The notes below the pieces were generated by a model. The model worked only from the letters and a program-made list of their open reading frames with translations. It had not been told where the DNA came from and did not search any database. From Patescibacteria group bacterium (GTDB taxonomy: Bacteria > Patescibacteriota > Patescibacteriia > SG8-24 > DYFX01), in NCBI GenBank assembly GCA_041659045.1, contig JBAZZB010000001.1, forward strand, positions 454,111-518,110: a stretch of DNA of 64,000 nt, written 5' to 3'. Shown piece after piece: positions 20,670-47,561 of this stretch. A program made the translations under genes and the position numbers. Position 1 is the stretch's first letter. Each line of letters begins with the position of its first letter.

Positions 20670-20676
20670 CAGGTTC

Positions 20677-21558: not shown

Positions 21559-21566
21559 ACGACAGA

Positions 21567-22619: not shown

Positions 22620-23239
22620 GATTTCCTCGAAATTGCGAATTCCAATTTGAAGAATTTCTTAAACGCCGCCGCGAGGAGCACGAACCCAATGAATCCGAAT
22701 ACGATGTACGTCCAAGGCCTATAGCGCGCGATCAAGCTTGTGATGCGATAAAATACCGCCTGAAAGATATTTGAGGGCGCAACCGTGAAGTAGAATTTCG
22801 AAGCAGCAGCAACACCGATACTGGCACCGCCCGTCGTGCGAGCTTTCCTCAAAGGGCGCGCTTCAAGAAACGCATAATACTCGCCCGGTTTGGCGTTCAA
22901 AGGCACGCGGAGCGTCATGGTGACCGGCTGAACCTTTCCAGGCTCAAGACTGAACGTCCGCGGCGTAAACGTCACCCAATCGCGACCCGGACGAAGCTGA
23001 GGAACGTTTTCCTGATACTCGATAAAAGCTTCGTACTCCGTAAGTTCATCACCCGTGTTGATTACGGGCAGAGTCGGAAGATCGTAAATCGTTCCAGGCT
23101 TGAGGGGTTCTTCTAGGATGACTTTTCCGAGCCCCACGCCGACTCCAACATTCGCAAAAACAGCGAGTGGGAACGCGAGCGCGGCTACGACCGCCAAGGC
23201 AGCTTTTCGGACAAAAATTTTCCGCATACCAACCTTCAC
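22616..23239 (-). CDS. Hypothetical surface protein with signal peptide and C-terminal TM anchor
   Basis: Signal peptide AALAVVAALAFPLAVFA, a beta-rich middle and a C-terminal helix FGFIGFVLLAAAF plus KKFFK tail. 4-nt overlap with the dockerin gene. Confidence 0.5.
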   Translation of the reverse strand: MKVGMRKIFVRKAALAVVAALAFPLAVFANVGVGVGLGKVILEEPLKPGTIYDLPTLPVINTGDELTEYEAFIEYQENVPQLRPGRDWVTFTPRTFSLEPGKVQPVTMTLRVPLNAKPGEYYAFLEARPLRKARTTGGASIGVAAASKFYFTVAPSNIFQAVFYRITSLIARYRPWTYIVFGFIGFVLLAAAFKKFFKLEFAISRKS

Positions 23240-23254
23240 GGTGAAGTACTCGAA

Positions 23255-23773
23255 TCAGGATGCTGTCGCGGTAACAACAACGTCGACACTTTGCTGTGTG
23301 TAATCTGCAGTTGCCGTTGGAGTCGTAAGAGTCAGGTCGAAACGTGTCGCCGCACCTACGGCCACGTCCGCAACCAAAGCGGTATTCCCCGTGGTCAAAG
23401 CCGTGTAGTTTGTCGGGTTGGATTCACAGGCCGTGAGGCAGAAGGAATGCCTGTACGTTTCTGAACTCGAAGTCGCCCCCAGCGTCCAGCTAGCGGAATC
23501 CGTGCCGGAAATGAAAAAATCTTCGACAACGTTGCCGGTGTTCGTCGCGCTTTGCGTGTCCCACATACCCACTGAAGTCGAGCGTGCAGTGCTCAGACTC
23601 AACGATCCATAGGCAATGCTAGCGTCAGCAGCTGTCAGCGCCACGTTCGTAACCGTGACAGTCGCTGCTACTGTTGCCGCCTGAACCGTCATCGTTGAAA
23701 ACGCCATCAACGAGGAGAACAAAAAGACCGCTGCCATCCAACTCCATCCCACTCTTGTTAGAGTCAAACGCAT
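23255..23773 (-). CDS. Small secreted protein, paralog of the C-terminal module of the giant glycine-rich protein (WxL-like)
   Basis: Start set at MRLTLTRVGWSWMAAVFLFSSLMAFS (signal peptide). The rest aligns nearly residue-for-residue with the last roughly 170 aa of the 1425-aa protein (GMWDTQSATNTGNV..DF.I.GT..A.WTLGAT). The similarity is also visible at nucleotide level. Confidence 0.6.
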   Translation of the reverse strand: MRLTLTRVGWSWMAAVFLFSSLMAFSTMTVQAATVAATVTVTNVALTAADASIAYGSLSLSTARSTSVGMWDTQSATNTGNVVEDFFISGTDSASWTLGATSSSETYRHSFCLTACESNPTNYTALTTGNTALVADVAVGAATRFDLTLTTPTATADYTQQSVDVVVTATAS

Positions 23774-23867
23774 ACGTCTAAGAAAAACATTCGGCCATTT
23801 ATAACTTGCCTCTATGATACCACGATCTTCAAGCGACCGATTGCGAAGATATCCCCAGTTTTCAGCC

Positions 23868-26800
23868 CTAATGCTGTGTCGCAGTGATGACGACGTCGAC
23901 GCTTTGTTGCGTATTGTATGAGGTCGATGTCGGCGTCGAAATATTGAGATCAAAGAGCTGCGCGGCGTCTACGGCGACGTTCGTTACCATCGACGTCTCC
24001 CCCGTCGTCAACGCCGTATAGTTGGTCGGTGCGGTCGTACAGCTCGCCGTGCAGAACGCATGCGCATACTGCTCGCTGCTTGGTGTCGCGCCGAGCGTCC
24101 AGTTAGCCGTGTTCGTTCCGCGAATGGTGAAATCCTCAGCAACGTTTCCGGTATTTGTCGCGCTTTGCGTGTCCCACATACCCGTTGATGTCGAGCGTGT
24201 CTCGCTGGTACCCATGATTCCATAAGCGACCGTGCCATCTCCAACAGTCACCGCGACAATCGTCGCCGGATTGATGGTGATCTGTCCTGATGAGTAGGCG
24301 CTTACGGGAGAGTTTTCACCATCATCGACGACACCGTACACGTAATAGCTTCCTGTCGTGACCCCTGTCGTGTCCCAAGCGCACGTCACACCTGTTCCTT
24401 CAGCGGCGGTGGCACACGGGCCGCTGATCACCGTACCGTCGAGACCGGAGTTATTGGTATCGTAATAGAAAGCCGCCGTCACAACATCATCGGAGTCAGC
24501 CAGGGTATACGTCACGTTGTAGGAATCTCCGACGGTAACGGTGTCGCTTGTGCCATCCGGTTGTGAAACCGAAATCGTTGGCGCAGCGTTGCCTGAAGCG
24601 ACATACGAAAGTTTCACTTTTCCATCAGCGCCGGCACCACCGATCGTACATGTCGATGTCGATGCGGATTCTCCGCCTCCACCTCCACCTCCACCGCTTC
24701 CGCTCGCTGGTGCGTTTCCGTTCGTGGCAATAGCGGACGCGCCATCTCCGCCAATACCTCCGCCCGAGGGGGCCGCCGCTGCCGTTGCTGTCGTCCAGGT
24801 CGTCGCGCCACTCGTACCATTCGCCGCAATGCCGGCGCTTGAACCGCCAGGTCCGCCGTAACCATTCGTGTTGTTGTAACCAACCCCTCCGTCACCGCCG
24901 GATGCGATGTAACTTGGCTCACTCACGCCTCCACTCGACGCACCGCCGCTTCCACCGGCCGGCGGCGTACCCGTTGAGTTTGCGCCGCCCGCGCCGCCTT
25001 TTGCCATCACGGTTGAGGCATCGACAAAATAGCTGTCCTCCCCAGATAATCCAGAAAGACAGGTGCCGCCGAGCCCGCCTCCTCCCGCCACGACGGTGTA
25101 GGTATTTCCAGCAGTGACTGCAACGGTGTTTTTGGAATATCCGCCGCCACCTCCACCACCACCTCCGTCGGAAATAATGCGCTGCTGTCCGCCACCACCA
25201 CCACCGCCGCCCCACACTTCAACATCAACAGACGTCACACCTGTGGGCGCCGTCCATGTGTAGACATAGGTGATTCGTACACGACCAACATAACCGTCTC
25301 CGCCTTTAACAGTGGCGCCTTCGGCCGCGCCGCCGCCGCCGCCGCCAGGACCAATATCCGGAGCCAAACCGTCCGTCGTTCCTGACGTAGCTGTGCCATA
25401 CCCTCCAGGACCACCACCAACGACAGCTACCGCACCAGTCGGTGCCGTGCTCGCATTCGTACCGGCACTCCCCGTACCTGCCGCACTGCCTCCACCTCCA
25501 CCAGCACCCGTCGCGCTGTTCGTACCAGCTCTACCGTTGCCGCCAGTGTAGGTCGTGTCGCCAACACTGGAACCGCCGGCGCCACCTGCGCCACCTGATC
25601 CTCCAGTGCCAGAGCCTCCGCTTCCCACATTTGGATTGCCGCCACTTCCGCCTTTTGCCATTACTGTCGAGGCGTCAATAAAATAGCTGTCTCCGCCAGC
25701 ATTACCGGCGCTTGAGGCGACGCCTGTTCCACCAGCACCAACAACAACGGTGTAGTCATTTCCAGGTGTGACGGAAATATTGGATTTCTTTGCGTAAGCA
25801 CCGCCTCCGCCGCCTCCGCCGCCATCATTCGCGGAGTCATTGTTACCGCCGCCGGCTCCGCCACCACCCCACGCCTCGACGTTCACGGCCGTGACGCCTG
25901 CAGGAGCCGTCCATGTTGCGGAACTCGTATAAACAACCGAACCCGTCGCATACGTATCAACCGTATCCGAAGAATCCGCAATATATGTGATAGCGACTTT
26001 TCCATCAGCGCCTTGACCTCCAATCGAACACGTTGTTGTTGAAAGCGCATCGGCTGCGCCGCCACCGCCGCCGCCAGAACCAAAATTACTCAAAGGCGGA
26101 TCCCCCGGCACACCGTCTGCGTCGCCGCCGTCACCGCCAATACCGCCCCCGTGCGGCGGTTTTGAAGCGTCGTCAATTGCCCATGTTGTGGGTCCATTCG
26201 TACCGTTTGCTGCCACGCCCGCGCTTGAGCCGCCAGGGCCGCCTCTGCCATCAGTAGCATTACTGCCCTTACCTCCGTTACCGCCGGAAAATTTTGTATC
26301 ACCAACGCCGGAAGCTGCCGCGCCACCAGCACCACCAGAACCTGGTGTGCCCGTAGAGTTCGGGCCGCCACTACCACCCTTCGCCATCACGGTCGATGTA
26401 TCGATAAAATAACTGTCGTCTCCAGCTACGCCAGTGATACATGTGCCTCCAAGACCACCAGCACCAACACCGACCGCATACGTGTTACCTGGAGTGACTG
26501 AAATGCTAGTTTTTTTGGAATATCCTCCGCCGCCGCCTCCACCTCCGCCGTCGGAAACAATGCGCTGTTGTCCACCGCCACCTCCGCCTCCGCCCCACAC
26601 TTCAACATCAACAGACGTCACGCCCGTCGGTGCCGTCCAGGTATAGATATAGGTAATGCGTACGCGACCAGGCGCACCGTCGCCACCTTGAGCAGTTGCT
26701 CCTTCGCCACTACCTCCGCCTCCGCCGCCAGGACCAATGTCAGGGGCAAGGCCGTTTCCGGCAACCGTAAATCCGTAGCCACCAGGACCACCACCAACCA

Positions 26801-28145
26801 CCGCAGTCGCGCCGGTCACTGTCGCAGCCGTGCCGTTGTTGCCGGCACTTGTCGTTCCCGCACCGCCACCACCTCCTCCTCCAATACCTGTCGTACTGTT
26901 TCTTCCCGCGCCACCAGTACCGCCCGAATACGTAACATCACCAACACTCGAACCACTGGCTCCTCCTGTTCCAGCAGTGCCGGCATCTCCAGTAGACGCT
27001 CCGCCCCCACCGCCACCCTTCGCCATGACCGTCGAAGAATCGATAAAATAGCTGTCGCCACCGGCGTTCCCGGCGCTTGAAGCCACGCCCGTACCTCCCG
27101 CGCCAACGACAACGGTATAGCCGTTTCCCGGTGTAACGGAGATATTCGATTTCTTCGCATACGCACCACCGCCGCCGCCACCACCACTGTCCGCGGAGGC
27201 TTGTGTGTTACCGCCACCTGCGCCACCAGCGCCCCACGCCTCGACGTTCACGGCCGTAACGCCGGTCGGAGCCGTCCATGTCGTCGAACTCGTATAGACA
27301 ACGGAGCCCGTCGTATATCTTTCTTCATAACCGCCCGTAGGTCGAAAACGAACCGCTCCAAGATCTACAGCGAAATCATCTGTTCCGTTTTTTGTTGCCG
27401 TACCGGCCGTGCCATCAGCATTCTCGACACCTTGCGTGTAATAGCTTCCCGGCGAGTTCAGCACGACGACCTCCGAATGTACTTCGATAATACTTGTTGC
27501 TTCGTACATCTGCACCTGCGTCGTCACGCGCGGAATACCTTCCTCGCAGCACTGTGCGAGATCCAAAAAATCCACGACAAAGACGCGATTTGGCGTTGAG
27601 CCAAACGTCTGATACCGAATCTGCGAACCGTTTGAGGAACTCGCGTACAAGTCGGCCCACACGGCGGCGATCAGCGCATTTGGCGTGGCTGCGTCTGGAA
27701 TCACTTGCGTGTTCGTGGAGCTGCCAGGGGTGTCGCCCGTAAAACTGACAAAGCCGTTGGAACTGATCCAGACCGAATCGTAATCGGTACCGTAAAAGGT
27801 AAATGTGAACGGCAGCGTAATCTCGCTGGAAAATTCGTTATCAAATGTTCCAGACGTATCAAACGCCGCAGTCGCTCCCCCATCAAGCGTGTAGGGATCG
27901 TAGGCGATGGTTGATGATTGATAGAAAATCTCAGCCGAGGCTTTCGCTTCGCGTACGTTTGGAAAAAACGGATTGTGACCGAGCCGCGGCCAATCAGAAA
28001 AAATCCAGCTGGTCATGATTGTCAAAACCAGCAGGAAGCGTGACACCTTGGCGGCCTTCTTACATCCAGACCAAAAAACACGCCTACACCAAGCAGCGCG
28101 GCGCGCGACAGAATCCATGTCGATGCGGATGGTCAACGTGCGCAT
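23868..28145 (-). CDS. Giant (1425 aa) glycine-rich repeat cell-surface protein
   Basis: N-terminal TM/signal and a beta domain with PFTFTFYGTDYDSVWISSNGFVSF. Then four repeats of TWTAPxGVTxVxVExWG(G)n...VTPGNxYxVxVGAGG...SYFIDxSTVMAKGG(G)n, organised as two near-identical roughly 467-aa super-repeats. Then an Ig-like domain and a C-terminal module with an NWTL motif. The exact start is uncertain. Confidence 0.75.
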   Translation of the reverse strand: MRTLTIRIDMDSVARRAAWCRRVFWSGCKKAAKVSRFLLVLTIMTSWIFSDWPRLGHNPFFPNVREAKASAEIFYQSSTIAYDPYTLDGGATAAFDTSGTFDNEFSSEITLPFTFTFYGTDYDSVWISSNGFVSFTGDTPGSSTNTQVIPDAATPNALIAAVWADLYASSSNGSQIRYQTFGSTPNRVFVVDFLDLAQCCEEGIPRVTTQVQMYEATSIIEVHSEVVVLNSPGSYYTQGVENADGTAGTATKNGTDDFAVDLGAVRFRPTGGYEERYTTGSVVYTSSTTWTAPTGVTAVNVEAWGAGGAGGGNTQASADSGGGGGGGAYAKKSNISVTPGNGYTVVVGAGGTGVASSAGNAGGDSYFIDSSTVMAKGGGGGGASTGDAGTAGTGGASGSSVGDVTYSGGTGGAGRNSTTGIGGGGGGGAGTTSAGNNGTAATVTGATAVVGGGPGGYGFTVAGNGLAPDIGPGGGGGGSGEGATAQGGDGAPGRVRITYIYTWTAPTGVTSVDVEVWGGGGGGGGQQRIVSDGGGGGGGGGYSKKTSISVTPGNTYAVGVGAGGLGGTCITGVAGDDSYFIDTSTVMAKGGSGGPNSTGTPGSGGAGGAAASGVGDTKFSGGNGGKGSNATDGRGGPGGSSAGVAANGTNGPTTWAIDDASKPPHGGGIGGDGGDADGVPGDPPLSNFGSGGGGGGAADALSTTTCSIGGQGADGKVAITYIADSSDTVDTYATGSVVYTSSATWTAPAGVTAVNVEAWGGGGAGGGNNDSANDGGGGGGGGAYAKKSNISVTPGNDYTVVVGAGGTGVASSAGNAGGDSYFIDASTVMAKGGSGGNPNVGSGGSGTGGSGGAGGAGGSSVGDTTYTGGNGRAGTNSATGAGGGGGSAAGTGSAGTNASTAPTGAVAVVGGGPGGYGTATSGTTDGLAPDIGPGGGGGGAAEGATVKGGDGYVGRVRITYVYTWTAPTGVTSVDVEVWGGGGGGGGQQRIISDGGGGGGGGGYSKNTVAVTAGNTYTVVAGGGGLGGTCLSGLSGEDSYFVDASTVMAKGGAGGANSTGTPPAGGSGGASSGGVSEPSYIASGGDGGVGYNNTNGYGGPGGSSAGIAANGTSGATTWTTATAAAAPSGGGIGGDGASAIATNGNAPASGSGGGGGGGGESASTSTCTIGGAGADGKVKLSYVASGNAAPTISVSQPDGTSDTVTVGDSYNVTYTLADSDDVVTAAFYYDTNNSGLDGTVISGPCATAAEGTGVTCAWDTTGVTTGSYYVYGVVDDGENSPVSAYSSGQITINPATIVAVTVGDGTVAYGIMGTSETRSTSTGMWDTQSATNTGNVAEDFTIRGTNTANWTLGATPSSEQYAHAFCTASCTTAPTNYTALTTGETSMVTNVAVDAAQLFDLNISTPTSTSYNTQQSVDVVITATQH

Positions 28146-28217: not shown

Positions 28218-28817
28218 TTACTGACGAACGTAAGGTGCCAGCTCAGCCGTCACGATAAAACGCTTAAAGGCCGTACCGAGCGGATAGGAAGTTTGCAGCG
28301 TCAAAGTTTTCTTCACGCCATCGCCTTGGGACAACACGCTGAGGTCCTTCGGGGAAACAACTTTCGTGCCCGTTACGACGTACAAAAACGGCGTACCGGA
28401 AGCATTCGTCACCTCGATTTCTTCACCAACGCGAATCGACATGAGCTTCGCGAACACATCTTTGTATGAACCCGGACTCCACACGTAATCGCTGGAGTGA
28501 CCAAAAAAGTAGGCGTTGCCAACTTGTCCCGGCATCGCCGTTCCCGGAAAATGCACGACACCTTTTTCGAGCGCTTGCTGAAAAGATTTCTCGTTACGCG
28601 CCGCTGGCTCGATGACAGGCGCATCGATTCCGAGTCCAGGGATCGCCAAACGCACCGCCAACGTTGAAGAAGACGAGGCGGCAACCGTTTCAATCATAAG
28701 CGTGGCGGAGTCGGGACGATCTCCGTCAACGCGTGCGCGAATCGATGGCCAAGCCATGATAAACACGGACGCGACAAGCGCGATGAAAGGCAGAAGTATA
28801 TGGGCGTGGCGGCGCAT
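28218..28817 (-). CDS. Sortase-fold protein with Ser in place of the catalytic Cys
   Basis: N-terminal TM. LAIPGLGIDAPVIE, HFPGTAMPGQVGNAYFFGHSS (the His motif) and KRFIVTAEL (Arg motif) align with SrtA. The TLxTC motif reads LTLQTSYP, with codon TCC at 28287-28289. The protein contains no Cys at all. Confidence 0.65.
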   Translation of the reverse strand: MRRHAHILLPFIALVASVFIMAWPSIRARVDGDRPDSATLMIETVAASSSSTLAVRLAIPGLGIDAPVIEPAARNEKSFQQALEKGVVHFPGTAMPGQVGNAYFFGHSSDYVWSPGSYKDVFAKLMSIRVGEEIEVTNASGTPFLYVVTGTKVVSPKDLSVLSQGDGVKKTLTLQTSYPLGTAFKRFIVTAELAPYVRQ

Positions 28818-36993: not shown

Positions 36994-37704
36994 TTAGAGC
37001 TGCGGCTTCTTGCGGATGATGTTTTCAACGGCAGCCCATTTGGACGGCGCGTTCTTCGGCACGAGGATAACGGCTTCGTCGCCTGCGTCGGCCTTGTAAT
37101 ACGTGACGGACGCCTTAATTACTTTCCAGGAGCGACCACCCGCAACAACCAAGAACTGACTCGTTTCTTGATCGAAGGCGAGAGAACCGATCAAGCGCTG
37201 TCGCTCGATCGGGCCGATTTGTTTGTAAATGAAGTTTCCGCGCCCACCGATCGTGAGCTTCAACATGTCGCCCTCAACAAGCTTCGACTTCGAAGCGTAG
37301 TTCGGAGGCACGGCGTAGCTTTTACCGTCGTCTCCGACCATTTCCTGGCCGTCAAAGACGCCCTCAACGACGCGATCGCCGGAGGAAAAAGCGTCGGTGG
37401 AATTTTGAGAGGGCGGAACGAGCGGGATGGCGGTAACGTTCCACGTTTGGGCTTCTTGCACGAGCCCCACCTGAGCACCTCTTGTTTCAGGGGCTGTGTC
37501 GTCAAGTAATTTTAGGGCGTTGTCGATCGAGTCGCGTACGTTCTTCAGGATCGCGCGAAGCGTCGCTGCTTTTGTCGGCGCAACGTCCGCGTGAACGACC
37601 GCTTCAACAAGCGCGTCCAAACGGTCCGGCATTTCTTTCGTCGCAACAGCTTCAGAGGACAACGGGCGCGCTTCTTGATCGATTTCTTCAGTGAGCCATT
37701 CCAT
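36994..37704 (-). CDS. Hypothetical protein
   Basis: 236-aa ORF between the ATPase gene and dnaX. No recognisable motifs. Confidence 0.45.
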   Translation of the reverse strand: MEWLTEEIDQEARPLSSEAVATKEMPDRLDALVEAVVHADVAPTKAATLRAILKNVRDSIDNALKLLDDTAPETRGAQVGLVQEAQTWNVTAIPLVPPSQNSTDAFSSGDRVVEGVFDGQEMVGDDGKSYAVPPNYASKSKLVEGDMLKLTIGGRGNFIYKQIGPIERQRLIGSLAFDQETSQFLVVAGGRSWKVIKASVTYYKADAGDEAVILVPKNAPSKWAAVENIIRKKPQL

Positions 37705-37781: not shown

Positions 37782-40235
37782 TTAGATAAACCTCAAGCGT
37801 TCGCGAATTTCCGCCTCGACAATCTCACGGTCGCGTCCGTATTTGAGACGCGAGAGCTGCTTGATGGCGGCTGTGATCTTCGTATCGCCTTTTGACAGGC
37901 CAGCCATTGCCATGTTGAAGGGGCGACTTGCCGTGTTGTCGATCAGAATTTTCGCATTGGCCGTATACGCTTCAACGTTCACGAGATCGAACGGTGTGAA
38001 GACCGGTGCAAATTCCTTGCCCAAAAATTCTGCGTCCTCAGTGCCGATACGGAAGGCGACCATCGTACCGACGTTACCAAAGATGGCGTCGCGAATCGTG
38101 GTGTCGCCTTTGGCCGAAATCTGCCCGATATATTGGTGCGCGATAATCAGATCAAGGCCGTACTTACGAGCCTCCGAGAGAATCGTCGCAATCGAGTCGG
38201 TAATAAAGTTCTGGAACTCGTCGATGTAGAGGTAGAAGTCTTTGCGATCCTTGGCGTCCATGTCCGTGCGCGAGAGTGCCGCCATCAAGATCTTGCCGAC
38301 CAAGACCATACCGATCAGGTACGCGTTGATGTCGCCGAGTTTGCCCTTGGAAAGATCGAGCAAGAGAATCTTGCCTTCATCCATCGCTTGGCGAACGTTG
38401 AACGCGCTCTTCTGCTGGCCGATGATCGGGCGAACAATGTCGTTGGTGATGAACGGTGTGAGCTTCGAAGTGATGTACGGCACCATGTTGGCGAGCGACG
38501 CTTCACCGCCGGCCTTCGACGCTTCCTTCAACCAGAAATCTTTCACGACTTGCGTCTTGCATTTCGACAACTTGTAAGCGCGGAAGCGTTCGTCGGAGAG
38601 CACACGCGGAATTTCCATCAAGGTCGAACCGGAAGCCGGATCGTCCATGACAAGAATCATGGCGTTGCGCATATACTGCTCGAACATCGGCCCACCCGTC
38701 GATTTAAGATCGTAGAGCTTGTCGAAAATCTTCAGCATCTCGTTGATGACGAAGGTTTTCTGTTCCGGATATTTTTCGTCGTACTCCAGCAAATTGAGAC
38801 CCATCGGCCGCTCGGTATCGGCCGGCGAGAAATAGATCACATCATCAGCGCGATTCTTCGGCACAAACGACAACGCATCCTGCGCAAAATCTCCGTGCGG
38901 ATCGATCACGCAAACACCTTTGCCAGCTTCAATGTCCTGCTTGACCATCGCCTTCATCATCTCGCTCTTACCAGAACCAGACTTACCGATGATGTACATG
39001 TGGCGACGGCGATCCCCCTGCTTGATGCGTACCGGATGCTCTTGGCCGCGGTACTTCACAACACCCAGAAGAATCCCCTCTTTCGGCAGGTTGGACGGTG
39101 GCGGTGCCTTGCGAGCCGTCAGCCAGCGAATGTTGGGTGTTTCGGTCGAGCTGAGCGGCAGATGCCAGAGACTCGCAAGCTCGTCAGGCGTCAGCACCAT
39201 GCGTCGCTTGTCGTGAAAGATACGCAAAATGAAGTCGCTGACGATGCGGCTTTTTCCTTCGCTGACGCGCTTAAACGCGTTACCGTACTGCGGACTCGAA
39301 AACTGGTTGAACGCACCAATCAAGTTTCCAAGCACGAGTTCGGCGCGTCCTGGCGTCGGCGATGAGGCAACCAAATTCACGTTGGTGTCGAGTCCGAGCT
39401 GGCCGACTTTTTCTTCGATCGACTTCACCATCTGCTCCTCAAGCGGCGACAAACGATATTCTTTGGCTTTTTCACCCGTCTTTTCCTCCTGCGTACCGTG
39501 CTTGATGAGACCTGATCCCTTACGCGCCTGGTCGTACGAGCGGCCTTGCTGCATAAGCGAAGCGATCTTCACCCCCTTCTCACGCCACGTTTTTTTCGCC
39601 GAACGCACAAGAATTTGGATTGCAGCACCATCACCAGTTTCGACTTTCGCGAGCGCATTCGTCAGCGCGTTCAGCGGATCGGTTTCAAGTTTTTTGTAGG
39701 TATGAAGTGGGAAGAAGTTTTCGCGCCCAAACACGAGGTGCGCGCTTGCGATTGTCCCCTTCGGTTGAAACACATTATAGTCGGAAACTTCCTCGATTTG
39801 CGCCAAAGGGTATTGCGCGTGGACTTGCTGTTCGACAAATTCACGAAAACGCTTTGGTGCCGAAATGTAAAACGAAACAAGACCACCTGTCGCCACGATT
39901 TCAAAAGCAATGACATCTCCGCGTCCTGCGAGCCACGCGCGGAGACCCCGCTCTGCCTTCAGGCCGCCAACACTTTTGAAAACACCTTCCGCCACAGCGA
40001 TGATGCCCTGAATTTCCTGGAGCGATTTGTCGTGCTGGCCGCCGTCTTTTTCACCGGATTCTTTCGGCACGGTTATGAGCATGACGACGTTGTCGAAACC
40101 ACGCGCGATTTCAGCTCTGGCCGTCAGGATGCGGCGCACGATTCTGAGCACGATCAAAAACACGAACAGCCCGACCACAAAAGGAACGGCGGGCATGACA
40201 AGCGATACAAGATCGGGAAACTGAAACGGGTTCAT
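37782..40235 (-). CDS. Type IV secretion coupling-protein-like P-loop ATPase (VirD4/TraG/TrwB-like), membrane anchored
   Basis: N-terminal TM helix, Walker A IIGKSGSGKS and motifs VIDPHGDF and YIDEFQNF, typical of T4SS coupling proteins and CPR-type DNA-translocating ATPases. Confidence 0.65.
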   Translation of the reverse strand: MNPFQFPDLVSLVMPAVPFVVGLFVFLIVLRIVRRILTARAEIARGFDNVVMLITVPKESGEKDGGQHDKSLQEIQGIIAVAEGVFKSVGGLKAERGLRAWLAGRGDVIAFEIVATGGLVSFYISAPKRFREFVEQQVHAQYPLAQIEEVSDYNVFQPKGTIASAHLVFGRENFFPLHTYKKLETDPLNALTNALAKVETGDGAAIQILVRSAKKTWREKGVKIASLMQQGRSYDQARKGSGLIKHGTQEEKTGEKAKEYRLSPLEEQMVKSIEEKVGQLGLDTNVNLVASSPTPGRAELVLGNLIGAFNQFSSPQYGNAFKRVSEGKSRIVSDFILRIFHDKRRMVLTPDELASLWHLPLSSTETPNIRWLTARKAPPPSNLPKEGILLGVVKYRGQEHPVRIKQGDRRRHMYIIGKSGSGKSEMMKAMVKQDIEAGKGVCVIDPHGDFAQDALSFVPKNRADDVIYFSPADTERPMGLNLLEYDEKYPEQKTFVINEMLKIFDKLYDLKSTGGPMFEQYMRNAMILVMDDPASGSTLMEIPRVLSDERFRAYKLSKCKTQVVKDFWLKEASKAGGEASLANMVPYITSKLTPFITNDIVRPIIGQQKSAFNVRQAMDEGKILLLDLSKGKLGDINAYLIGMVLVGKILMAALSRTDMDAKDRKDFYLYIDEFQNFITDSIATILSEARKYGLDLIIAHQYIGQISAKGDTTIRDAIFGNVGTMVAFRIGTEDAEFLGKEFAPVFTPFDLVNVEAYTANAKILIDNTASRPFNMAMAGLSKGDTKITAAIKQLSRLKYGRDREIVEAEIRERLRFI

Positions 40236-40684
40236 AGTTTCAAGATCTTATCGGTTTTGATCTTGGCTTCTTGCGTCAGAAAAAAATGATTGACGCCCGG
40301 GATCAACTTCAGCCAGGTGGCGATAAGTTTGAGCACCACACGGGCGTTCACCTTGGCGGTACGCACCATCGTGACGATGAGTGTCGTAATACGTTCGCCC
40401 TCCTTACGAAACTTGGCCTGCAGCTCCGGTGTCATCTTATGAAAGGCATCACCGAGGTCTTCTTCGAGAATACTTTCGACCGCGCGCACGGCGGGATCTT
40501 TCGGAACAGCTACCACCGGCGCCGCGACCGTCGGTACGTCTGGCATGACAGGAACTGGCTCCGGAGGTTGCTCAACAACTGGTGTTGGAGACTCAAACGA
40601 AGCCCCTGTCTCAGGAACTTCGTTGCGTTGCTCCGGAGTGGCCGGAACCTCTTCAAAACCGGGCGTTGTCCCTCCTGGCGGCAT
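40232..40684 (-). CDS. Hypothetical Pro-rich small protein translationally coupled to the ATPase
   Basis: Its stop overlaps the ATPase start (ATGA). Pro/Glu-rich N-terminal half and a helical C-terminal half. Confidence 0.4.
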   Translation of the reverse strand: MPPGGTTPGFEEVPATPEQRNEVPETGASFESPTPVVEQPPEPVPVMPDVPTVAAPVVAVPKDPAVRAVESILEEDLGDAFHKMTPELQAKFRKEGERITTLIVTMVRTAKVNARVVLKLIATWLKLIPGVNHFFLTQEAKIKTDKILKL

Positions 40685-42763: not shown

Positions 42764-42807
42764 AGTTGTGCTATACTATCATCAACTTAGTCCTATCACA
42801 ATTCCGT

Positions 42808-43362
42808 ATGGACATGAAGAAAGCGGCGCTTGCCGTCGTCGGCCTAGCCGTTGGTTTCGTGGCCGGGTACGGGACGGGTCGCGTCTCGACAGGCACGCCG
42901 ATCAATCCCCTTTCCGGAACGAAAGGGAGCTACGAAGAAGGGTACGCCGCTGCCGTAAAAGTGGCGACGGAATCAGGAGTTTTTCCTCCCCTTCCGACAG
43001 AGCTTTCCGTCTTGAGCGGCAAAATCGTTTCTGCCGACAAGACCTCGATCGTGTTTGATGCTGATCTTATCGCACAGAACCCGCTCCTGAAACTTGAAGG
43101 CCCGACGCGACGCACGATCCTTCTCGGCACGGATACCAAGATCGTCCGCATCGAAGAGAAGAATTCAGAGGAACTCGCCGCGGCTCAAGACGCGTTTGCG
43201 AAAGCAATGGCTACGGGCGAACCCGTGCCGCCGCCATCCCCTGTCAAACAGGTTCCGTACACGGAGCCGCTCAAAGCTGGTGACATGATCATGGTCGAGG
43301 CTGCCACCAACATCCTGCAGTCCACATCGTTCAGCGCTACGCTCATCACCGTTCTGCCGTAA
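42808..43362 (+). CDS. Hypothetical membrane-anchored protein
   Basis: MDMKKAALAVVGLAVGFVAGYG is an N-terminal TM helix. Followed by a terminator. Confidence 0.45.
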   Translation: MDMKKAALAVVGLAVGFVAGYGTGRVSTGTPINPLSGTKGSYEEGYAAAVKVATESGVFPPLPTELSVLSGKIVSADKTSIVFDADLIAQNPLLKLEGPTRRTILLGTDTKIVRIEEKNSEELAAAQDAFAKAMATGEPVPPPSPVKQVPYTEPLKAGDMIMVEAATNILQSTSFSATLITVLP

Positions 43363-44026: not shown

Positions 44027-44062
44027 AACAAAAAAACACCCCGGAAAACCGGGGTGTTTTTT
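44027..44062. terminator. Bidirectional rho-independent terminator
   Basis: AAAAAACACCCCGGaaaaCCGGGGTGTTTTTTT is a palindrome flanked by A and T tracts. Confidence 0.6.
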
Positions 44063-44065
44063 TGA

Positions 44066-47000
44066 TCATTTTTTGATCAGGTCTTTGAGTTCCTGAAGTT
44101 CCTGACGGAGCTCATCGATCTCTTTCTCCTGCTCGCGCAACTCGCTATCAAGCTCCTTGATGGCGTTGATGCTGATGTAGGTGAAATCGCTCGGATCAAC
44201 CATGTAGATAGCCGTCTTACTGGTATCCGTAGGATTCAGCTTGCGATAATCGGTCCTAACCATGGACGGCGCGATTTTTTGCAACTCCTGCGCGATCACA
44301 CCGACACCCTTATGACCCGCGGGCATTTCACCCAAGCCATTATAGGTGTAGTTCACCGGATTAACCTCGCGAATAACCGAGAGGCCACTGGTGTATGGCG
44401 TAACATCTTTTTTCACGCGACGATCAGACGTCGCCGTCCAGCTGCCGCCACCAGGTTTTGCCGCGCCACCCGAACTGACGTACACACCCCAAGACGTACT
44501 GCCTCCAGAAGCGTGCGCATACACGGCCGTGTTCAACGCCGTGCCGCTCATGGCGTAAAATACGCCGCCGTAGTTTGTAGAGTTAGAGGAGCTCGTCGAT
44601 AAGCCATAGACGCCGTAGTTACCGTACGCAAGATAGACGTTTGATCCTTCAGACTGGTGCGTGAAGTGAGCGCCCGCAATACCTGCAACAGTACTACCTT
44701 CAACACCGTAGGAGTTTGTTCCTTGTCCGTAGATACCTGTCGTACTACCCGTTCCGTACACACCATAGATCGTACCTGTCGATTGAATACCCCAGCCACC
44801 AATCGGCGAAGCGCCGTTGACGCCAAGACTGTTGGTGATTGTCACGCGACCCTGCGCGTAGAGAGCCGTATCAAACGACTGGAAGGCCTGTGCATAGACA
44901 GCTGTGCTACCCGCCGTATTTGCGCCGAAGTAACCACCATACGAGCTACCGGAAGCATTCACACCGATTGAACCGCCGCTTCCCGCAAGCGCCGTACCAC
45001 CAGCGTTCACGACTGCAGCCACGCCAGCGACGGTACCGCGTACCGAAAGCGCCGTATCAAACGAGGAAAAGCCGAGACCTGTGTTGCTAATACCAACATA
45101 GTTGTTGATTTGGCGACCGCGCGCGGCGACAGTATCAAGCGTGTCCACTTCAGCGCCACAATCAACCCATACGCTGTTTTCAAAGCAGCGAAGCTTGTTG
45201 TTGACCGAGTTGTAGTACAGCATGCCGTTCACGCCAGCCGGGTTCGAGCCCATGCTGCCGAGAACGAGTTCGCCACTCACCGTCGTACGGTCAGTCGTCG
45301 CGTTACCAAGCGTCGAGTTGTCAGCAACCCAGAACGTTCCGCCGACCGTCAACGTCGAACCGGGACCGGCGATACCAACGCCTACGCGGTTGTTGGCCGC
45401 ATCGATATACAGGGTGTTCGCGTCAAAGTTCAGGCTGTTCGGCGTCGTGATCGCCGTTCCGGTAATCGTCAGTGTGTCGGCAGCCGCGTTTCCAATCGTC
45501 GTGTTGCCGTTAATCGCGAGGTTCTGCGCAGCAATGACCGTCACACCGTCATCGGTCAATGTCGAGTTTCCGATTGATGAGGCGGTTGTAAACTTCGGAA
45601 TCGCGTTGACAGTACCGCTACCAGTCAGACCAGAAGGAATGCAGTCCCTCCAAGCACCGTTTTCATAGCAGCGGAACTTGTTTGTCGTCGTATTGTAGAA
45701 CATGCGTCCGTTCGTACCTCCAATATCGACTGCGGACAAACCAAGAATCAGCGAAGTACCGTTGCCAATTGTGGCTCCACCAGAGAACGAGGCCGTACCA
45801 GCGACGTGCAACGACGTGAAGTCGCCACCCCAACCCGTGCTCGAACTTCCATAGACACCGGTACCATTGCTGGTGGAGTGTCCGTACACGCCGTAGACGG
45901 GGGAAATACCGTACACGCCCGTGCTCACGCCACTACCCATGATACCCGTCGAACCAGGACCCGAAGCAATGGATGTTATCGCTGTATTGCCGTTGCCGGA
46001 ATTATTAACGGTGATCGTAGGCACCGAAACAGAGTTCGCAGTAAGGACACCGTATACGCGCATGGCGTAGGCCGGGTCCGGGGCGCCGCCAACACCAATC
46101 GTGGCGCCGTCATCCCAAATATTGGAGTTACCAACCGTGTTTCCGTCGGAAGTGAACTTAACAAGTCGGTTGAGCTCACCCACGCCAGCGACGCTTGGCG
46201 GGCAGTTCGTACCGTTCGCGACACAAACCAACTGACCACCTACGGACATCGTACCGGCCGCAACGACGTTACCGTCAGCATCGACGCTGAAGCGGTCAAC
46301 CGACTCAGCCTGCAAAAGGAGAATCTTTCCCGCGGCGAATTGGTCGACGTTACCGTAGATCAGGTTTTCTGCCGGGTTGGTCAGACGGACATCCGGACTA
46401 CCGAACATCGCCATTCCAGCGACATCCACCGTCCCCGCCTCGTCAACGGACAAAACGGTTTCGTTAAGGCCGTTTATCCAGTAGTAGGCGTTTGAGGAGT
46501 TGTCGTTGGTGTCGATGCGGTAGTAGACGGATCCGTCTGTGTAGAGATTGAACGCGTTCTCGCCCGTACCGTAGAGCTCGATACCGCCCACTTGGTTCGC
46601 GAGCGTCATTACGGTTCCACCAAGCGTGTTGTTGAAGGCCGTGGTCGTACTGAACGTCTTGGCTCCGGTAAACGTTTGCGTGTTGTTCAAAAGCGCGACG
46701 TTTGAAGAAAGACGCGCGTCATTCAATGTACCAGTCGTAATGCTGTTCGCGTTGATGTTGCCGACCACAACGCCGTCGATTCCGCCCTGCACGTGGAGCC
46801 TGCCGGGAATGACAATACTGTTCGTAGAAGAAACCGTCATCGAGCTGATGCCGTTCGTGACAAGGTTCATCGTATCGGCCGCACTGCGGTAGATACCCGT
46901 GTTGCTGTCACCGTTGAAGGTAAGCGCCGGGATTGCCGCCGAACCAACCGGAATGAACATCGAACCCGTTTGCAAACCCGCACCGCCGTTGTTGACGATG

Positions 47001-47500
47001 AATCGTTGCACACCACCAGTTGTGATACCAACGTTGTCAGTACCGACCCAATACATACCCGTATTGCTGTCGCCATTGAACGTGTACGACGGAACGGCAG
47101 CAGAGCCGACGGAACCCGAGAGAACACCTTGCGTCGTCAGGTCGCCGGACAGGCCGATCCGGAAACGATCAGCAGCACCCAGTTGGAGCAACAACAAACT
47201 GCCCGCGCTGGAAGTCGCGCCGACATTGCCGTACAGCAAATTCTGACCGGCCGAGTTCAAGACCGGTGTGCTGGCGCCTGCCTGGAAGGTTGCGCCGACT
47301 TTCGCGTCGCCCGTGACGTTGATGCTCGCGTTCTGTGCCGGGCTCGCGATCGGGATGTTCTGAATGACGGCCGGACTGCAGTTTGGAGGCGTACAGGTCG
47401 GGGCGGCGAATTGCGCGTGAGCGGCGCGCGCGCCAAAAGCCAAAGCGACAAAGGCTACGAGCGAAACGAAAATCTTGCGGTCGGTCGTGGCGATGCGCAT
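44066..47500 (-). CDS. Secreted tail-fibre-like protein with C-terminal intramolecular chaperone (peptidase S74) domain and terminal coiled coil
   Basis: Signal peptide at MRIATTDRKIFVSLVAFVALAFGARAAHA (start ATG 47498-47500). Long Gly/Ser/Thr/Asn-rich beta-rich body. A twice-repeated NxxxNKxRC(Y/F)ENxxWxDC motif. C-terminal SDRRVKKDV...GVGVIAQELQKIAPSMV matches the autoproteolytic chaperone domain of phage tail spikes/endosialidases. Ends with a heptad-like REQEKEIDELRQELQELKDLIKK. Confidence 0.7.
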   Translation of the reverse strand: MRIATTDRKIFVSLVAFVALAFGARAAHAQFAAPTCTPPNCSPAVIQNIPIASPAQNASINVTGDAKVGATFQAGASTPVLNSAGQNLLYGNVGATSSAGSLLLLQLGAADRFRIGLSGDLTTQGVLSGSVGSAAVPSYTFNGDSNTGMYWVGTDNVGITTGGVQRFIVNNGGAGLQTGSMFIPVGSAAIPALTFNGDSNTGIYRSAADTMNLVTNGISSMTVSSTNSIVIPGRLHVQGGIDGVVVGNINANSITTGTLNDARLSSNVALLNNTQTFTGAKTFSTTTAFNNTLGGTVMTLANQVGGIELYGTGENAFNLYTDGSVYYRIDTNDNSSNAYYWINGLNETVLSVDEAGTVDVAGMAMFGSPDVRLTNPAENLIYGNVDQFAAGKILLLQAESVDRFSVDADGNVVAAGTMSVGGQLVCVANGTNCPPSVAGVGELNRLVKFTSDGNTVGNSNIWDDGATIGVGGAPDPAYAMRVYGVLTANSVSVPTITVNNSGNGNTAITSIASGPGSTGIMGSGVSTGVYGISPVYGVYGHSTSNGTGVYGSSSTGWGGDFTSLHVAGTASFSGGATIGNGTSLILGLSAVDIGGTNGRMFYNTTTNKFRCYENGAWRDCIPSGLTGSGTVNAIPKFTTASSIGNSTLTDDGVTVIAAQNLAINGNTTIGNAAADTLTITGTAITTPNSLNFDANTLYIDAANNRVGVGIAGPGSTLTVGGTFWVADNSTLGNATTDRTTVSGELVLGSMGSNPAGVNGMLYYNSVNNKLRCFENSVWVDCGAEVDTLDTVAARGRQINNYVGISNTGLGFSSFDTALSVRGTVAGVAAVVNAGGTALAGSGGSIGVNASGSSYGGYFGANTAGSTAVYAQAFQSFDTALYAQGRVTITNSLGVNGASPIGGWGIQSTGTIYGVYGTGSTTGIYGQGTNSYGVEGSTVAGIAGAHFTHQSEGSNVYLAYGNYGVYGLSTSSSNSTNYGGVFYAMSGTALNTAVYAHASGGSTSWGVYVSSGGAAKPGGGSWTATSDRRVKKDVTPYTSGLSVIREVNPVNYTYNGLGEMPAGHKGVGVIAQELQKIAPSMVRTDYRKLNPTDTSKTAIYMVDPSDFTYISINAIKELDSELREQEKEIDELRQELQELKDLIKK

Positions 47501-47561
47501 AAGGCGTAATGGTTGATGAGACCAGTATACCTTTTCCGCTTGCATTCCCCATTGGGGATAA

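What the first reader, a model, noticed from the sequence alone, without database searches (positions are those of the whole stretch)
44066..47500. Sec-exported tail-fibre-like protein with self-cleaving S74 chaperone domain and no surrounding phage genes
The 1144-aa protein has a cleavable signal peptide and a long beta-rich Gly/Thr/Asn body. It contains two copies of an NxxxNKxRC(Y/F)ENxxWxDC motif. It ends with the SDRRVKKDV...GVIAQELQKIAP intramolecular-chaperone autoprotease domain that trims phage tail spikes after trimerisation, followed by a heptad coiled coil. Flanking genes are cysS and dnaJ with no capsid, terminase or other tail genes, so this is not a prophage. It looks like a host-encoded trimeric surface fibre that borrows phage tail-fibre maturation chemistry.
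Basis: partly seen in the sequence, partly recalled or inferred. Interest (0 to 1): 0.65.

Follow-up and report, generated by a model that had tools for sequence, protein, structure and literature searches.

The report
Cell-encoded phage-like fibre in Patescibacteria
A tiny, probably host-dependent bacterium (Patescibacteria) carries, at a fixed chromosomal site next to its heat-shock genes, an exported 1144-residue protein built like a phage tail fibre with a self-cleaving folding domain. Its far end is swapped between close relatives, which makes it a good candidate for the structure these bacteria use to recognise partner cells.

Summary
Window 44066..47500 (-) encodes a 1144-aa protein with these parts:
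- a Sec-type signal peptide
- four local Cys pairs
- duplicated beta-rich modules, including two NKxRC(Y/F)EN modules
- a C-terminal Peptidase_S74 intramolecular-chaperone domain (Pfam E=6e-13) with the S1025/K1030 dyad and a terminal coiled coil.

No phage structural gene lies in the 64 kb. The gene is a positional orthologue in all nine family loci inspected (dnaJ, fibre, antisense ~200-aa gene, cysS, then a T4SS-coupling-protein-like ATPase and dnaX). It evolves faster than its neighbours (36-76% identity against 63-98%) but under purifying selection (dN/dS about 0.1).

The ~60 residues after the signal peptide are invariant. The distal end is mosaic. In the closest genome, everything after the motif DTLDTVAARG (aa 786-795) is replaced by a different C-terminal module, probably Peptidase_G2-like. 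Other members end in a Cys-rich knob.

This is the architecture described in 2024 for the Bdellovibrio MAT prey-recognition fibres. That family had not been reported in Patescibacteria. Here there is one locus per genome, and the N-terminal module has no detected relative outside this small family.

Verdict: real. I rate it a new variant of a known kind. Export, trimerisation, autocleavage and adhesion are all inferred, not shown.

The parts
44066..47500 (-). Complete CDS of the fibre protein (1144 aa plus stop)
   Evidence: ORF list. Identical to an NCBI protein named 'tail fiber domain-containing protein [Patescibacteria group bacterium]'. dN/dS about 0.1 against orthologues.
47414..47500 (-). 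Sec-type signal peptide, aa 1-29, with predicted cleavage A-H-A|Q-F
   Evidence: Charged n-region, 14-residue hydrophobic core and an AxA site. AQF is invariant in 24 homologues while the h-region varies. This is a heuristic call, not a SignalP run.
47240..47413 (-). Invariant N-terminal module, aa 30-87 (QFxxPTCxPPxCxPxVIQNI...Q.A.IN..G..K.G), with the Cys36/Cys41 pair; proposed cell-proximal docking end
   Evidence: It holds most of the invariant columns of alignment A1. Only 46 relatives were found in 1.84 billion representative proteins. None was found in viral contigs. No Pfam hit. AF2 confidence is low.
45116..47239 (-). Shaft, aa 88-795, built of duplicated beta modules: NLxYGN..LLLLQ..DRF (x2), PSYTFxGDxNTG (x2), xKFT..GNS..DDG (x2), and Cys426/Cys433
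   Evidence: Internal repeats have z 8.9-19 against shuffles. aa 130-244 are modelled at pLDDT 84-92 and match 78 BFVD viral models at E<=1e-3, many of them S74 or chaperone-domain phage proteins. PHROG 28766 tail fibre hits aa 130-174.
45638..45778 (-). First Cys-loop module, aa 575-621 (GRMFYNTTTNKFRCYENGAWRDC; Cys611/Cys620)
   Evidence: Duplicated module, z=17.5. Beta-hairpin at pLDDT 62-74.
45158..45298 (-). Second Cys-loop module, aa 735-781 (GMLYYNSVNNKLRCFENSVWVDC; Cys772/Cys781)
   Evidence: Lies within the PHROG 1980 tail-fibre alignment (aa 745-1140).
45116..45145 (-). Junction motif DTLDTVAARG, aa 786-795; the recombination breakpoint for tip exchange
   Evidence: The motif occurs in 8 family members, twice in P0009. 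DNA colinearity with the closest genome (L005) stops exactly at window 45117, aa 795.
44429..45115 (-). Distal tip of the mature fibre, aa 796-1024, with Gly/Tyr-rich GxYG repeats; aa ~900-1010 are hypervariable
   Evidence: Identity to orthologues falls to 38-62% at aa 900-1000 against 72-94% in the flanking stretches. There is a blastn gap at aa 913-1010 against L001. PHROGs 5668 and 5481 tail-fibre alignments cover aa 820-1143. The AF2 monomer model is unreliable here.
44069..44428 (-). Peptidase_S74 intramolecular-chaperone/autoprotease domain, aa 1025-1144. Catalytic Ser1025 is codon 44426..44428 and Lys1030 is codon 44411..44413. The terminal coiled coil is aa 1103-1143.
   Evidence: Pfam, PDB phmmer, Foldseek. 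SDxRxK is conserved in all canonical S74-type family members, with a 118-147 aa released fragment. Heptad register. pLDDT 70-84.
44029..44064 (.). Strong palindromic intrinsic terminator immediately after the stop codon
   Evidence: 16-bp stem with 8 GC pairs, flanked by A and T runs. The downstream lipoprotein-like gene has its own TTGACA-17-TAGATT promoter-like site.

Best explanation
This is a chromosomally encoded, vertically inherited fibre protein of a small clade of Patescibacteria. It is built on the plan of a phage tail fibre and of the Bdellovibrio MAT adhesins.

**Proposed mechanism (steps 1-5 are inferred)**
1. The precursor is exported through Sec, and the leader is cut at AHA|QF.
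2. Outside the membrane, three C-terminal S74 domains associate through their beta-strands and terminal coiled coil. They nucleate folding of the interleaved trimeric shaft from the C-terminus towards the N-terminus. Local Cys pairs staple four loops.
3. Once the trimer is correct, Ser1025, activated by Lys1030, cleaves the T1024-S1025 bond. The 120-residue chaperone leaves and exposes the distal tip (aa ~796-1024).
4. The invariant N-terminal ~60 residues hold the fibre on a conserved envelope component.
5. The hypervariable, exchangeable tip binds a surface ligand, probably a glycan, on a partner or host cell or a substrate.

**Tip exchange.** Tip specificity is renewed by recombination at the conserved DTLDTVAARG junction. 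That exchange can even replace the S74 module with a G2-like chaperone module or with a Cys-rich knob.

**Shown here**
- domain content
- catalytic motif
- fold of the S74 domain
- non-phage context
- conserved synteny
- purifying selection
- mosaicism and the breakpoint.

**Inferred:** export, trimerisation, cleavage, anchoring and ligand binding.
For: **S74 domain**
- Profile, sequence and fold matches, with the SDxRxK dyad conserved across the family.

**Export**
- Leader with an invariant AxA|QF site.
- Eight Cys arranged as four local pairs, which fits an extracytoplasmic protein.

**Not a prophage**
- The whole window holds cellular genes and no phage structural gene.
- All nine family loci inspected lie between dnaJ and cysS.
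- There is one locus per genome in 11 GTDB species, all Patescibacteria or Minisyncoccota, or mislabelled MAGs with the same synteny.
- The N-terminal module is absent from IMG/VR.

**Functional and fast-evolving**
- dN/dS is about 0.1.
- The fibre is 36-76% identical where DnaK is 89-98% and CysS 63-88%.

**Conserved base with a variable tip**
-.
- Exact breakpoint at aa 795 in the closest genome.
- Alternative C-terminal modules.

**Phage-type shaft modules**
-.

**Precedent**
- Bdellovibrio MAT fibres have the same layout: signal peptide, conserved N-terminal domain, trimeric fibre, and S74 or non-S74 tips.
- S74 autocleavage was shown for Bd3182 (S782A blocks it).
- Surface localisation and glycan binding were also shown (PMC10769870).
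Against: - There is no experimental or expression data for this organism.
- The signal peptide was judged by rule of thumb only.
- The AF2 monomer model of the shaft and tip is poor (mean pLDDT 45), so trimeric beta-helix geometry is not shown.
- No anchoring partner was identified. There is no LPxTG or other known anchor motif, so the fibre could simply be released.
- Homology of the N-terminal module to the Bdellovibrio MAT N-domain could not be tested (afdb50 unavailable).
- There is one copy per genome, unlike the 21 paralogues in Bdellovibrio.
- An episymbiotic lifestyle for this particular clade is assumed from what is known of cultivated Patescibacteria (PMC12206443 abstract). It is not shown.
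Confidence: 0.6

Rival explanations
1. The protein is a secreted, unanchored trimeric lectin or enzyme. It is exported and processed as above but released into the medium. There it would act as a soluble polysaccharide-binding or depolymerising spike, for example to loosen host capsule or biofilm matrix, rather than as an attached adhesin.
For: - After leader cleavage there is no recognisable anchor: no LPxTG, no lipobox, no transmembrane segment.
- S74 domains are typical of phage endosialidases and depolymerase spikes (3gw6 is a weak, non-significant match, E about 0.04; BFVD 'putative endosialidase').
Against: - No glycosidase or lyase domain was found by Pfam, NCBIfam or PHROGs.
- The strictly invariant N-terminal module with a variable distal end is the signature of a docking end. 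A free enzyme would be expected to conserve its catalytic part instead.
Confidence: 0.15
2. The protein is a receptor-binding fibre for a phage-tail-like particle (tailocin, extracellular contractile injection system or gene-transfer agent) or for a resident phage encoded elsewhere in the genome. The gene would have become unlinked from its cluster.
For: - S74-terminated fibres are used by eCIS particles (PMC12923769 and bioRxiv 10.1101/2025.05.13.653841, listed).
- The shaft and S74 modules resemble phage fibres.
Against: - A Sec leader does not fit cytoplasmic particle assembly.
- No sheath, tube, baseplate, capsid or terminase gene lies in the 64 kb or in the ±8-10 kb around eight other loci.
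- The position is fixed beside dnaJ across genomes whose DnaJ is only 74% identical.
- The N-terminal module, which would be the particle-docking end, is absent from 2.9 million viral contigs.
Confidence: 0.05
3. The protein is a structural envelope spike or S-layer-associated fibre with no specific recognition role, or one whose variability is driven by escape from phages or predators that use it as a receptor. Partner recognition would not be the driver.
For: - It is a single-copy, conserved-position gene, like a core envelope component.
- Rapid divergence and cassette replacement are also what phage-receptor escape would produce.
Against: - Variability is concentrated at the distal tip that S74 cleavage exposes. 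In phage fibres and MAT proteins that is the ligand-binding end (PMC10769870).
- Nothing in the data distinguishes 'binds a ligand' from 'is bound as a receptor'.
Confidence: 0.15

Closest known systems
Bdellovibrio bacteriovorus MAT (mosaic adhesive trimer) fibres, e.g. Bd3182 (Caulton et al. 2024, Nat Microbiol, PMC10769870)
   Same: - Both are cell-encoded, not phage.
- Both have a signal peptide followed directly by a conserved N-terminal module.
- Both have a long (~1000 aa) beta-rich fibre.
- C-termini are either S74 with an SDxxxK motif or alternative non-S74 tips, with 'tip swapping'.
- Both are found in bacteria that live on other cells.
(for MAT; for this protein.)
   Different: - There is one locus per genome at a fixed site beside dnaJ, not 21 dispersed paralogues.
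- The invariant N-terminal module is ~60 aa with a Cys pair. Homology to the ~130-aa MAT N-domain was not testable.
- The MAT 'capping-loop' motif is found only once, loosely (VGGAPDPAYAM).
- The organism is a Patescibacterium. From general knowledge these have a Gram-positive-like envelope without an outer membrane, so the anchoring must differ.
- Patescibacteria are not in the paper's list of MAT-bearing lineages.
Phage tail fibres and spikes with a C-terminal intramolecular chaperone (K1F endosialidase 3GW6, T5 pb1 4UW8, S16 gp37 6F45)
   Same: - The S74 domain has the Ser-Lys dyad, sits at the C-terminus, and releases a ~120-150 aa fragment ending in a helical coiled coil (3gw6 and 4uw8 give only weak, non-significant Foldseek hits).
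- Shaft modules are shared with phage S74 proteins.
   Different: - This protein has a Sec leader, paired cysteines and an N-terminal module unknown in viruses.
- No neighbouring virion genes.
- Against 50,697 phage genomes, only aa 1022-1144 match by tblastn, at 29-38% identity.
Eukaryotic MyRF ICA domain (7DC3)
   Same: It is the best structural match to the modelled C-terminal domain (Foldseek E=2e-4, 26% identity over 121 columns). It is another case of a cell using the phage S74 trimerise-then-cleave module.
   Different: MyRF is a membrane-tethered transcription factor. Its cleavage releases a nuclear fragment and has nothing to do with a surface fibre.
Tail fibres of extracellular contractile injection systems carrying S74
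   Same: They are bacterial-genome-encoded fibres with S74 ends (papers listed).
   Different: Those are encoded inside eCIS clusters and assembled in the cytoplasm. Here there is no such cluster, and a leader peptide is present.

Membership tests
Peptidase S74 / intramolecular chaperone auto-processing domain (PF13884) | Profile match above the curated threshold | tested here: met
   E=6e-13, 49.3 bits against a cut-off of 22; aa 1025-1081 align to profile positions 1-57.
Peptidase S74 / intramolecular chaperone auto-processing domain (PF13884) | Catalytic Ser-Lys dyad in an S-D-x-x-x-K motif at the start of the domain | tested here: met
   S1025-D-R-R-V-K1030. SDxRxK occurs in every canonical S74-type family member and aligns with SDRRIKKD of 6f45_A.
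Peptidase S74 / intramolecular chaperone auto-processing domain (PF13884) | C-terminal position; released fragment of about 120-150 aa ending in a trimer-forming helix | tested here: met
   120 aa follow the cleavage site (118-147 in relatives). Helix 1103-1143 has a heptad register.
Peptidase S74 / intramolecular chaperone auto-processing domain (PF13884) | Fold like solved IMC/ICA domains | tested here: met
   Foldseek: 7dc3 E=2e-4, prob 1.0, TMt 0.57-0.60. 4uw8 and 3gw6 follow. Only this region of the model is confident.
Peptidase S74 / intramolecular chaperone auto-processing domain (PF13884) | Trimerisation-dependent autocleavage | not testable with these tools
   This needs expression of aa ~796-1144 with and without S1025A or K1030A.
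MAT (mosaic adhesive trimer) fibres of predatory bacteria | Signal peptide | tested here: met
   The n/h/c regions and an invariant AxA|QF site are present. This is a heuristic call without SignalP.
MAT (mosaic adhesive trimer) fibres of predatory bacteria | Conserved N-terminal domain right after the leader, homologous to the ~130-aa MAT N-domain | not testable with these tools
   An invariant module exists (aa 30-87). No Bdellovibrio N-domain sequence or structure was reachable: it is not in the PDB and afdb50 was unavailable. The module itself is modelled at low confidence.
MAT (mosaic adhesive trimer) fibres of predatory bacteria | Common base with alternative S74 and non-S74 tips | tested here: met
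   Of 24 aligned members, 17 are S74-type (15 with the canonical SDxRxK motif; P0017 and P0024 have a variant motif but a precomputed S74 Pfam hit), 5 have a G2-like module and 2 have a Cys-rich knob. The breakpoint is at aa 795.
MAT (mosaic adhesive trimer) fibres of predatory bacteria | Large paralogous repertoire per genome | tested here: not met
   The genome scan with N-module patterns found one locus per species representative. Only one copy lies in this 64-kb window.
MAT (mosaic adhesive trimer) fibres of predatory bacteria | Surface display and binding of prey or host ligands | not testable with these tools
   Experimental.
Prophage, tailocin or eCIS tail fibre | Encoded within a cluster of virion, tail or baseplate genes | tested here: not met
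   No such gene lies in the window or around eight orthologous loci. The two tRNAs are 14 kb or more away and no integrase-family hit was returned.

The most novel reading that the evidence does not exclude
The fibre is the main host- or partner-specificity determinant of this Patescibacteria clade. It is a single 'receptor-binding protein' locus whose tip cassette (aa 796 to the end, sometimes with the downstream gene) is exchanged by recombination at the DTLDTVAARG junction, much as phages swap fibre tips. The cassettes carry either of two unrelated phage-type self-cleaving chaperones (S74, or a G2-like module with an invariant DIAEVY motif) that work after Sec export. If so, host range of uncultured episymbionts could be read, and perhaps predicted, from one gene.
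Probability: 0.25. Interest if true: 0.7.

Novelty: new variant of a known kind. Interest (0 to 1): 0.5.

Why it matters
How ultrasmall Patescibacteria find and hold their hosts is largely unknown. So far type IV pili and a few adhesins have been implicated in Saccharibacteria (PMC12206443 and PMC10633639).

This locus offers a concrete, testable candidate in another lineage. It is a single, syntenic, fast-evolving fibre with a conserved base and a swappable tip, and its processing chemistry is already understood in phages and Bdellovibrio.

It also extends cell-owned S74 fibres to a lineage with a different envelope. In addition, it suggests that two different phage chaperone modules are interchangeable at one locus.

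Practical uses would be:
- recombinant tips as probes to identify hosts in mixed communities
- tip typing in metagenomes as a proxy for host range.

Tried and rejected
**Hypotheses rejected**
- **Prophage or mobile element.** Rejected by the whole-window annotation and the nine syntenic loci.
- **Tailocin or eCIS fibre.** Rejected as unlikely because of the leader, the lack of a cluster, and the N-module's absence from viral contigs.
- **Sortase anchoring.** A sortase gene lies at 28218..28817, but the fibre has no LPxTG, and its C-terminus is removed in any case.
- **The downstream 172-aa lipoprotein as a conserved partner.** Rejected: it is missing or non-homologous in L005, L007 and L008 and has its own promoter-like site after a terminator.

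**Searches that found nothing**
- The search for homologous proteins with the N-terminal 125 aa returned nothing. This was evidently a word-index failure, because phmmer later found 46 relatives.
- Pfam at E<=10 on the N-module, the Cys-loop module, module B and module C gave nothing meaningful.
- NCBIfam gave nothing.
- PDB sequence and profile searches with module B gave nothing.
- Foldseek of the N-terminal model against the PDB gave nothing significant.

- The full-length AF2 monomer model is unreliable outside three short regions.
- Self-BLAST for internal repeats printed nothing. I replaced it with local alignments scored against shuffles.


Full report
**1. The object**

Window 44066..47500 (-) is a 1144-aa ORF. 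The longest mechanical ORF starts at a GTG at 47641 and would overlap the end of dnaJ (stop at 47562). The ATG at 47500 leaves a 61-nt gap, the same spacing as in the orthologues. A 16-bp GC-rich palindromic terminator follows the stop codon directly (44029..44064). No terminator or promoter-like site was found between dnaJ and the fibre gene, so read-through from the hrcA-grpE-dnaK-dnaJ operon is possible; this is inference. The identical protein exists in NCBI on a 646-kb contig as 'MAG: tail fiber domain-containing protein [Patescibacteria group bacterium]'.

**2.

All were verified.
- **S74 domain.** Pfam Peptidase_S74 matches aa 1025-1081 at E=6e-13, starting at profile position 1 on Ser1025. 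The motif S1025-D-R-R-V-K1030 is the Ser-Lys dyad. It aligns with SDRRIKKD of the phage S16 gp37 chain 6f45_A, and that alignment runs on through the C-terminal coiled coil (E=7.7e-7).
- **Structure.** In a full-length AF2 monomer model (mean pLDDT 45, unreliable overall) the S74 region is confident (pLDDT 70-84). It matches the MyRF ICA domain 7dc3 (E=2e-4, TMt about 0.6); the T5 pb1 and K1F chaperones 4uw8 and 3gw6 follow only as weak, non-significant hits (E 0.012-0.2).
- **Coiled coil.** It is real, with a heptad register, but it belongs to the chaperone domain and is not an added feature.
- **Leader.** The n-region has R2, R8 and K9. The hydrophobic core is 14 residues. The site is A-H-A|Q-F. 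Across 24 homologues the core varies while A29-Q30-F31 are invariant.
- **NKxRC(Y/F)EN motifs.** The two copies lie in a duplicated ~50-aa module (z=17.5). Three other module pairs are also duplicated (z 8.9-19).
- **Cysteines.** The eight cysteines form four local pairs: 36/41, 426/433, 611/620 and 772/781. Across the core family the Cys count is always even. This fits an exported, disulfide-stapled protein, but that reading is inference.

**3. Context**

Pfam and PHROGs over the whole window find only cellular genes:
- acetate kinase, PFOR, glycosyltransferase, tRNA and rRNA modification enzymes and Era-like GTPase
- dnaX, DEAD helicase, cysS and the hrcA-grpE-hsp20-dnaK-dnaJ operon
- YidC, Dus and a P-type ATPase-sized ORF
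- other surface proteins.

There is no capsid, terminase, portal, tail or baseplate gene, and no integrase-family hit. The only tRNAs are at 29.7 and 62.4 kb. cysS is not immediately adjacent. A 172-aa lipoprotein-like gene with its own promoter-like site, and an antisense ~185-aa membrane-anchored gene, lie in between.

**4. It is a positional orthologue, not a mobile gene**

All nine family loci inspected (the window and eight from other assemblies) have the same order: dnaJ, fibre, antisense ~200-aa gene, cysS, then DUF8128/TraG-like ATPase and dnaX. This includes a contig labelled 'Baltobacteraceae', which is evidently misbinned.

| Comparison with the window | Fibre | DnaK | T4CP-like | CysS |
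|---|---|---|---|---|
| Identity across loci | 76, 72, 55, 39, 36% | 89-98% | 82-92% | 63-88% |

dS is saturated. dN/dS is about 0.1 in every region, including the S74 domain. The gene is therefore functional, constrained, and faster-evolving than its neighbours.

A scan of one genome for each of 185,579 GTDB species found 11 loci, one per genome. All are Patescibacteria or Minisyncoccota, or generically mislabelled MAGs. The same N-terminal patterns found no relative in 2.9 million viral contigs. phmmer of aa 26-135 against 1.84 billion representative proteins found only 46 hits.

**5. Conserved base, mosaic tip**

Most invariant columns of the 24-sequence alignment lie in aa 29-69, immediately after the leader. 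Identity profiles are mosaic.

In the genome with the most similar flanks (L005; DnaK 98%), DNA colinearity runs from dnaJ to fibre aa 795 (window 45117). It then stops and resumes only at window 42954. A ~2.2-kb segment has therefore been replaced, comprising the tip, the S74 domain, the lipoprotein gene and part of the antisense gene. The breakpoint coincides with the motif DTLDTVAARG (aa 786-795). That motif occurs in eight members, twice in one of them. Among the S74-type orthologues the least conserved stretch is aa ~900-1010, just before the cleavage site. That stretch becomes the exposed end after chaperone release.

The C-termini fall into three kinds:
- **(A) S74.** Found in 17 of the 24 aligned members; 15 have the canonical SDxRxK motif, and P0017 and P0024 have a variant motif with a precomputed S74 Pfam hit.
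- **(B) A ~200-aa module with an invariant DIAEVY...ALAGRxPVKVT...PGDLLT motif and a terminal coiled coil.** Found in 5 members.
- **(C) A short Cys-rich knob.** Found in 2 members.

Module B has no direct Pfam or PDB hit. It does have at least 270 homologues in environmental MAGs. It aligns at 99.6% hhalign probability to a protein whose overlapping region passes the Pfam Peptidase_G2 (phi29 gp12-type chaperone) threshold. Module B is therefore probably a second kind of phage intramolecular chaperone. The link is transitive and weak.

**6. Relation to phage fibres**

tblastn against 50,697 phage genomes matches only aa 1022-1144, at 29-38% identity. Profiles see more. PHROG tail-fibre families align to aa 745-1143 and to the PSYTFxGDxNTG module. 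A second AF2 model (aa 30-244) is confident for that repeat pair (pLDDT 84-92). That model matches 78 BFVD viral models at E<=1e-3, many annotated as S74 or intramolecular-chaperone proteins, but nothing significant in the PDB. So the shaft and chaperone are of phage-fibre type. The leader, the invariant N-module and the cysteine pairs are what set this protein apart.

**7. What is known**

The Bdellovibrio MAT family (PMC10769870) has the same logic:
- a signal peptide
- a conserved ~130-aa N-domain thought to bind the predator surface
- a trimeric fibre
- 13 members ending in S74 (SDxxxK; Bd3182 cleaves at S782 and S782A blocks it) and 8 with other tips
- surface localisation and glycan binding for one member.

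MAT-like proteins were listed for Oligoflexia, a PVC predator, Micavibrio, Bradymonadales, Myxococcales, Bacteroidota and Omnitrophota, but not for Patescibacteria. No paper in the library combines 'mosaic adhesive' with a Patescibacteria term. Three Patescibacteria papers I checked do not mention S74 or tail-fibre-like proteins.

The present family differs in several ways:
- It is single-copy and syntenic.
- Its invariant module is shorter and Cys-stapled, and its homology to the MAT N-domain could not be tested.
- It lies in a lineage that, from general knowledge, lacks an outer membrane.

**8. Mechanism and confidence**

The best-supported reading has five steps:
1. Sec export.
2. Extracytoplasmic trimerisation nucleated by the S74 domains.
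3. Autocleavage at T1024|S1025.
4. Retention through the invariant N-terminus.
5. Ligand binding by the exchangeable tip.

The domain facts and genomic facts are shown. Export, trimerisation, cleavage, anchoring and binding are inferred from homology and from the MAT precedent. Rivals are a released soluble spike, a plain envelope fibre whose variability reflects receptor escape, and a fibre for an unlinked tail-like particle. The data do not exclude the first two.

**9. Verdict**

It is already machine-annotated as a 'tail fiber domain-containing protein'. It belongs to the now-known class of cell-owned S74 fibres, but it is a distinct variant in an unreported lineage, with a well-defined tip-swap junction. 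Interest is moderate.

Noticed in passing
L005:12403-13528 (P0005 aa ~796-1175); also P0004, P0006, P0021, P0022: Syntenic orthologues carry a different ~200-aa C-terminal module in place of S74. It has invariant DIAEVY, STSPGVLMGN, ALAGRxPVKVT and PGDLLT motifs and a terminal coiled coil. It has no direct Pfam or PDB hit but at least 270 homologues in environmental MAGs. Through P0177 it links to Peptidase_G2, the phi29 gp12-type intramolecular chaperone.
   Followed up: partly
P0018 and P0020 C-termini (last ~80 aa): A third tip type: a short Cys-rich knob (GSGWxxCG..YCxCPNGSF...QVYCYKP) ends the protein with no chaperone domain and no Pfam hit.
   Followed up: no
window 23868..28145 (-), with 28218..28817 (-): A 1425-aa protein with four Gly_rich_2 (PF21722) stretches lies next to a sortase gene. 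No LPxTG motif was found in it by a simple pattern. The 232-aa ORF just downstream (23255..23953) has a near-identical C-terminal ~60 aa.
   Followed up: partly
window 19218..23239 (-): A run of exported proteins has weak cohesin/Big_7 and dockerin/Big_6 matches (483 aa and 350 aa) plus two leader-bearing proteins with no known domain. This may be a second surface-assembly cluster.
   Followed up: no
window 37782..40235 (-) with 40232..40684 (-) and 36994..37704 (-): An 817-aa TraG/VirD4-like coupling ATPase (DUF8128 in the orthologues) is translationally coupled to a 150-aa Pro-rich protein and followed by a 236-aa protein. The trio is conserved in all nine loci, 3.8 kb from the fibre. It may relate to the Patescibacteria type IV secretion system described in PMC12102498.
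   Followed up: no
window 42766..43362 (+): An antisense gene of ~185-250 aa with an N-terminal membrane anchor sits between the fibre and cysS in every locus. It evolves fast (31-65% identity), its function is unknown, and its 3' part lies inside the segment replaced in L005.
   Followed up: partly
window 47501..47561: No terminator or sigma-70-like promoter was detected between the dnaJ stop and the fibre start. The adjacency is conserved, with a 168-aa gene inserted in L007 and L021, so the fibre may be co-transcribed with the heat-shock operon.
   Followed up: partly
loci L011-L014, L016, L017, L019 and L020: Several public MAG records carrying this locus are labelled 'uncultured Gammaproteobacteria' or 'Candidatus Baltobacteraceae'. 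For the labelled records whose gene context was looked up (P0012/L020, 'Baltobacteraceae', and P0019/L022, the same contig as L017, 'Gammaproteobacteria'), the flanking genes show the Patescibacteria synteny; the contexts of the others were not inspected. The labels look like binning or taxonomy errors.
   Followed up: partly
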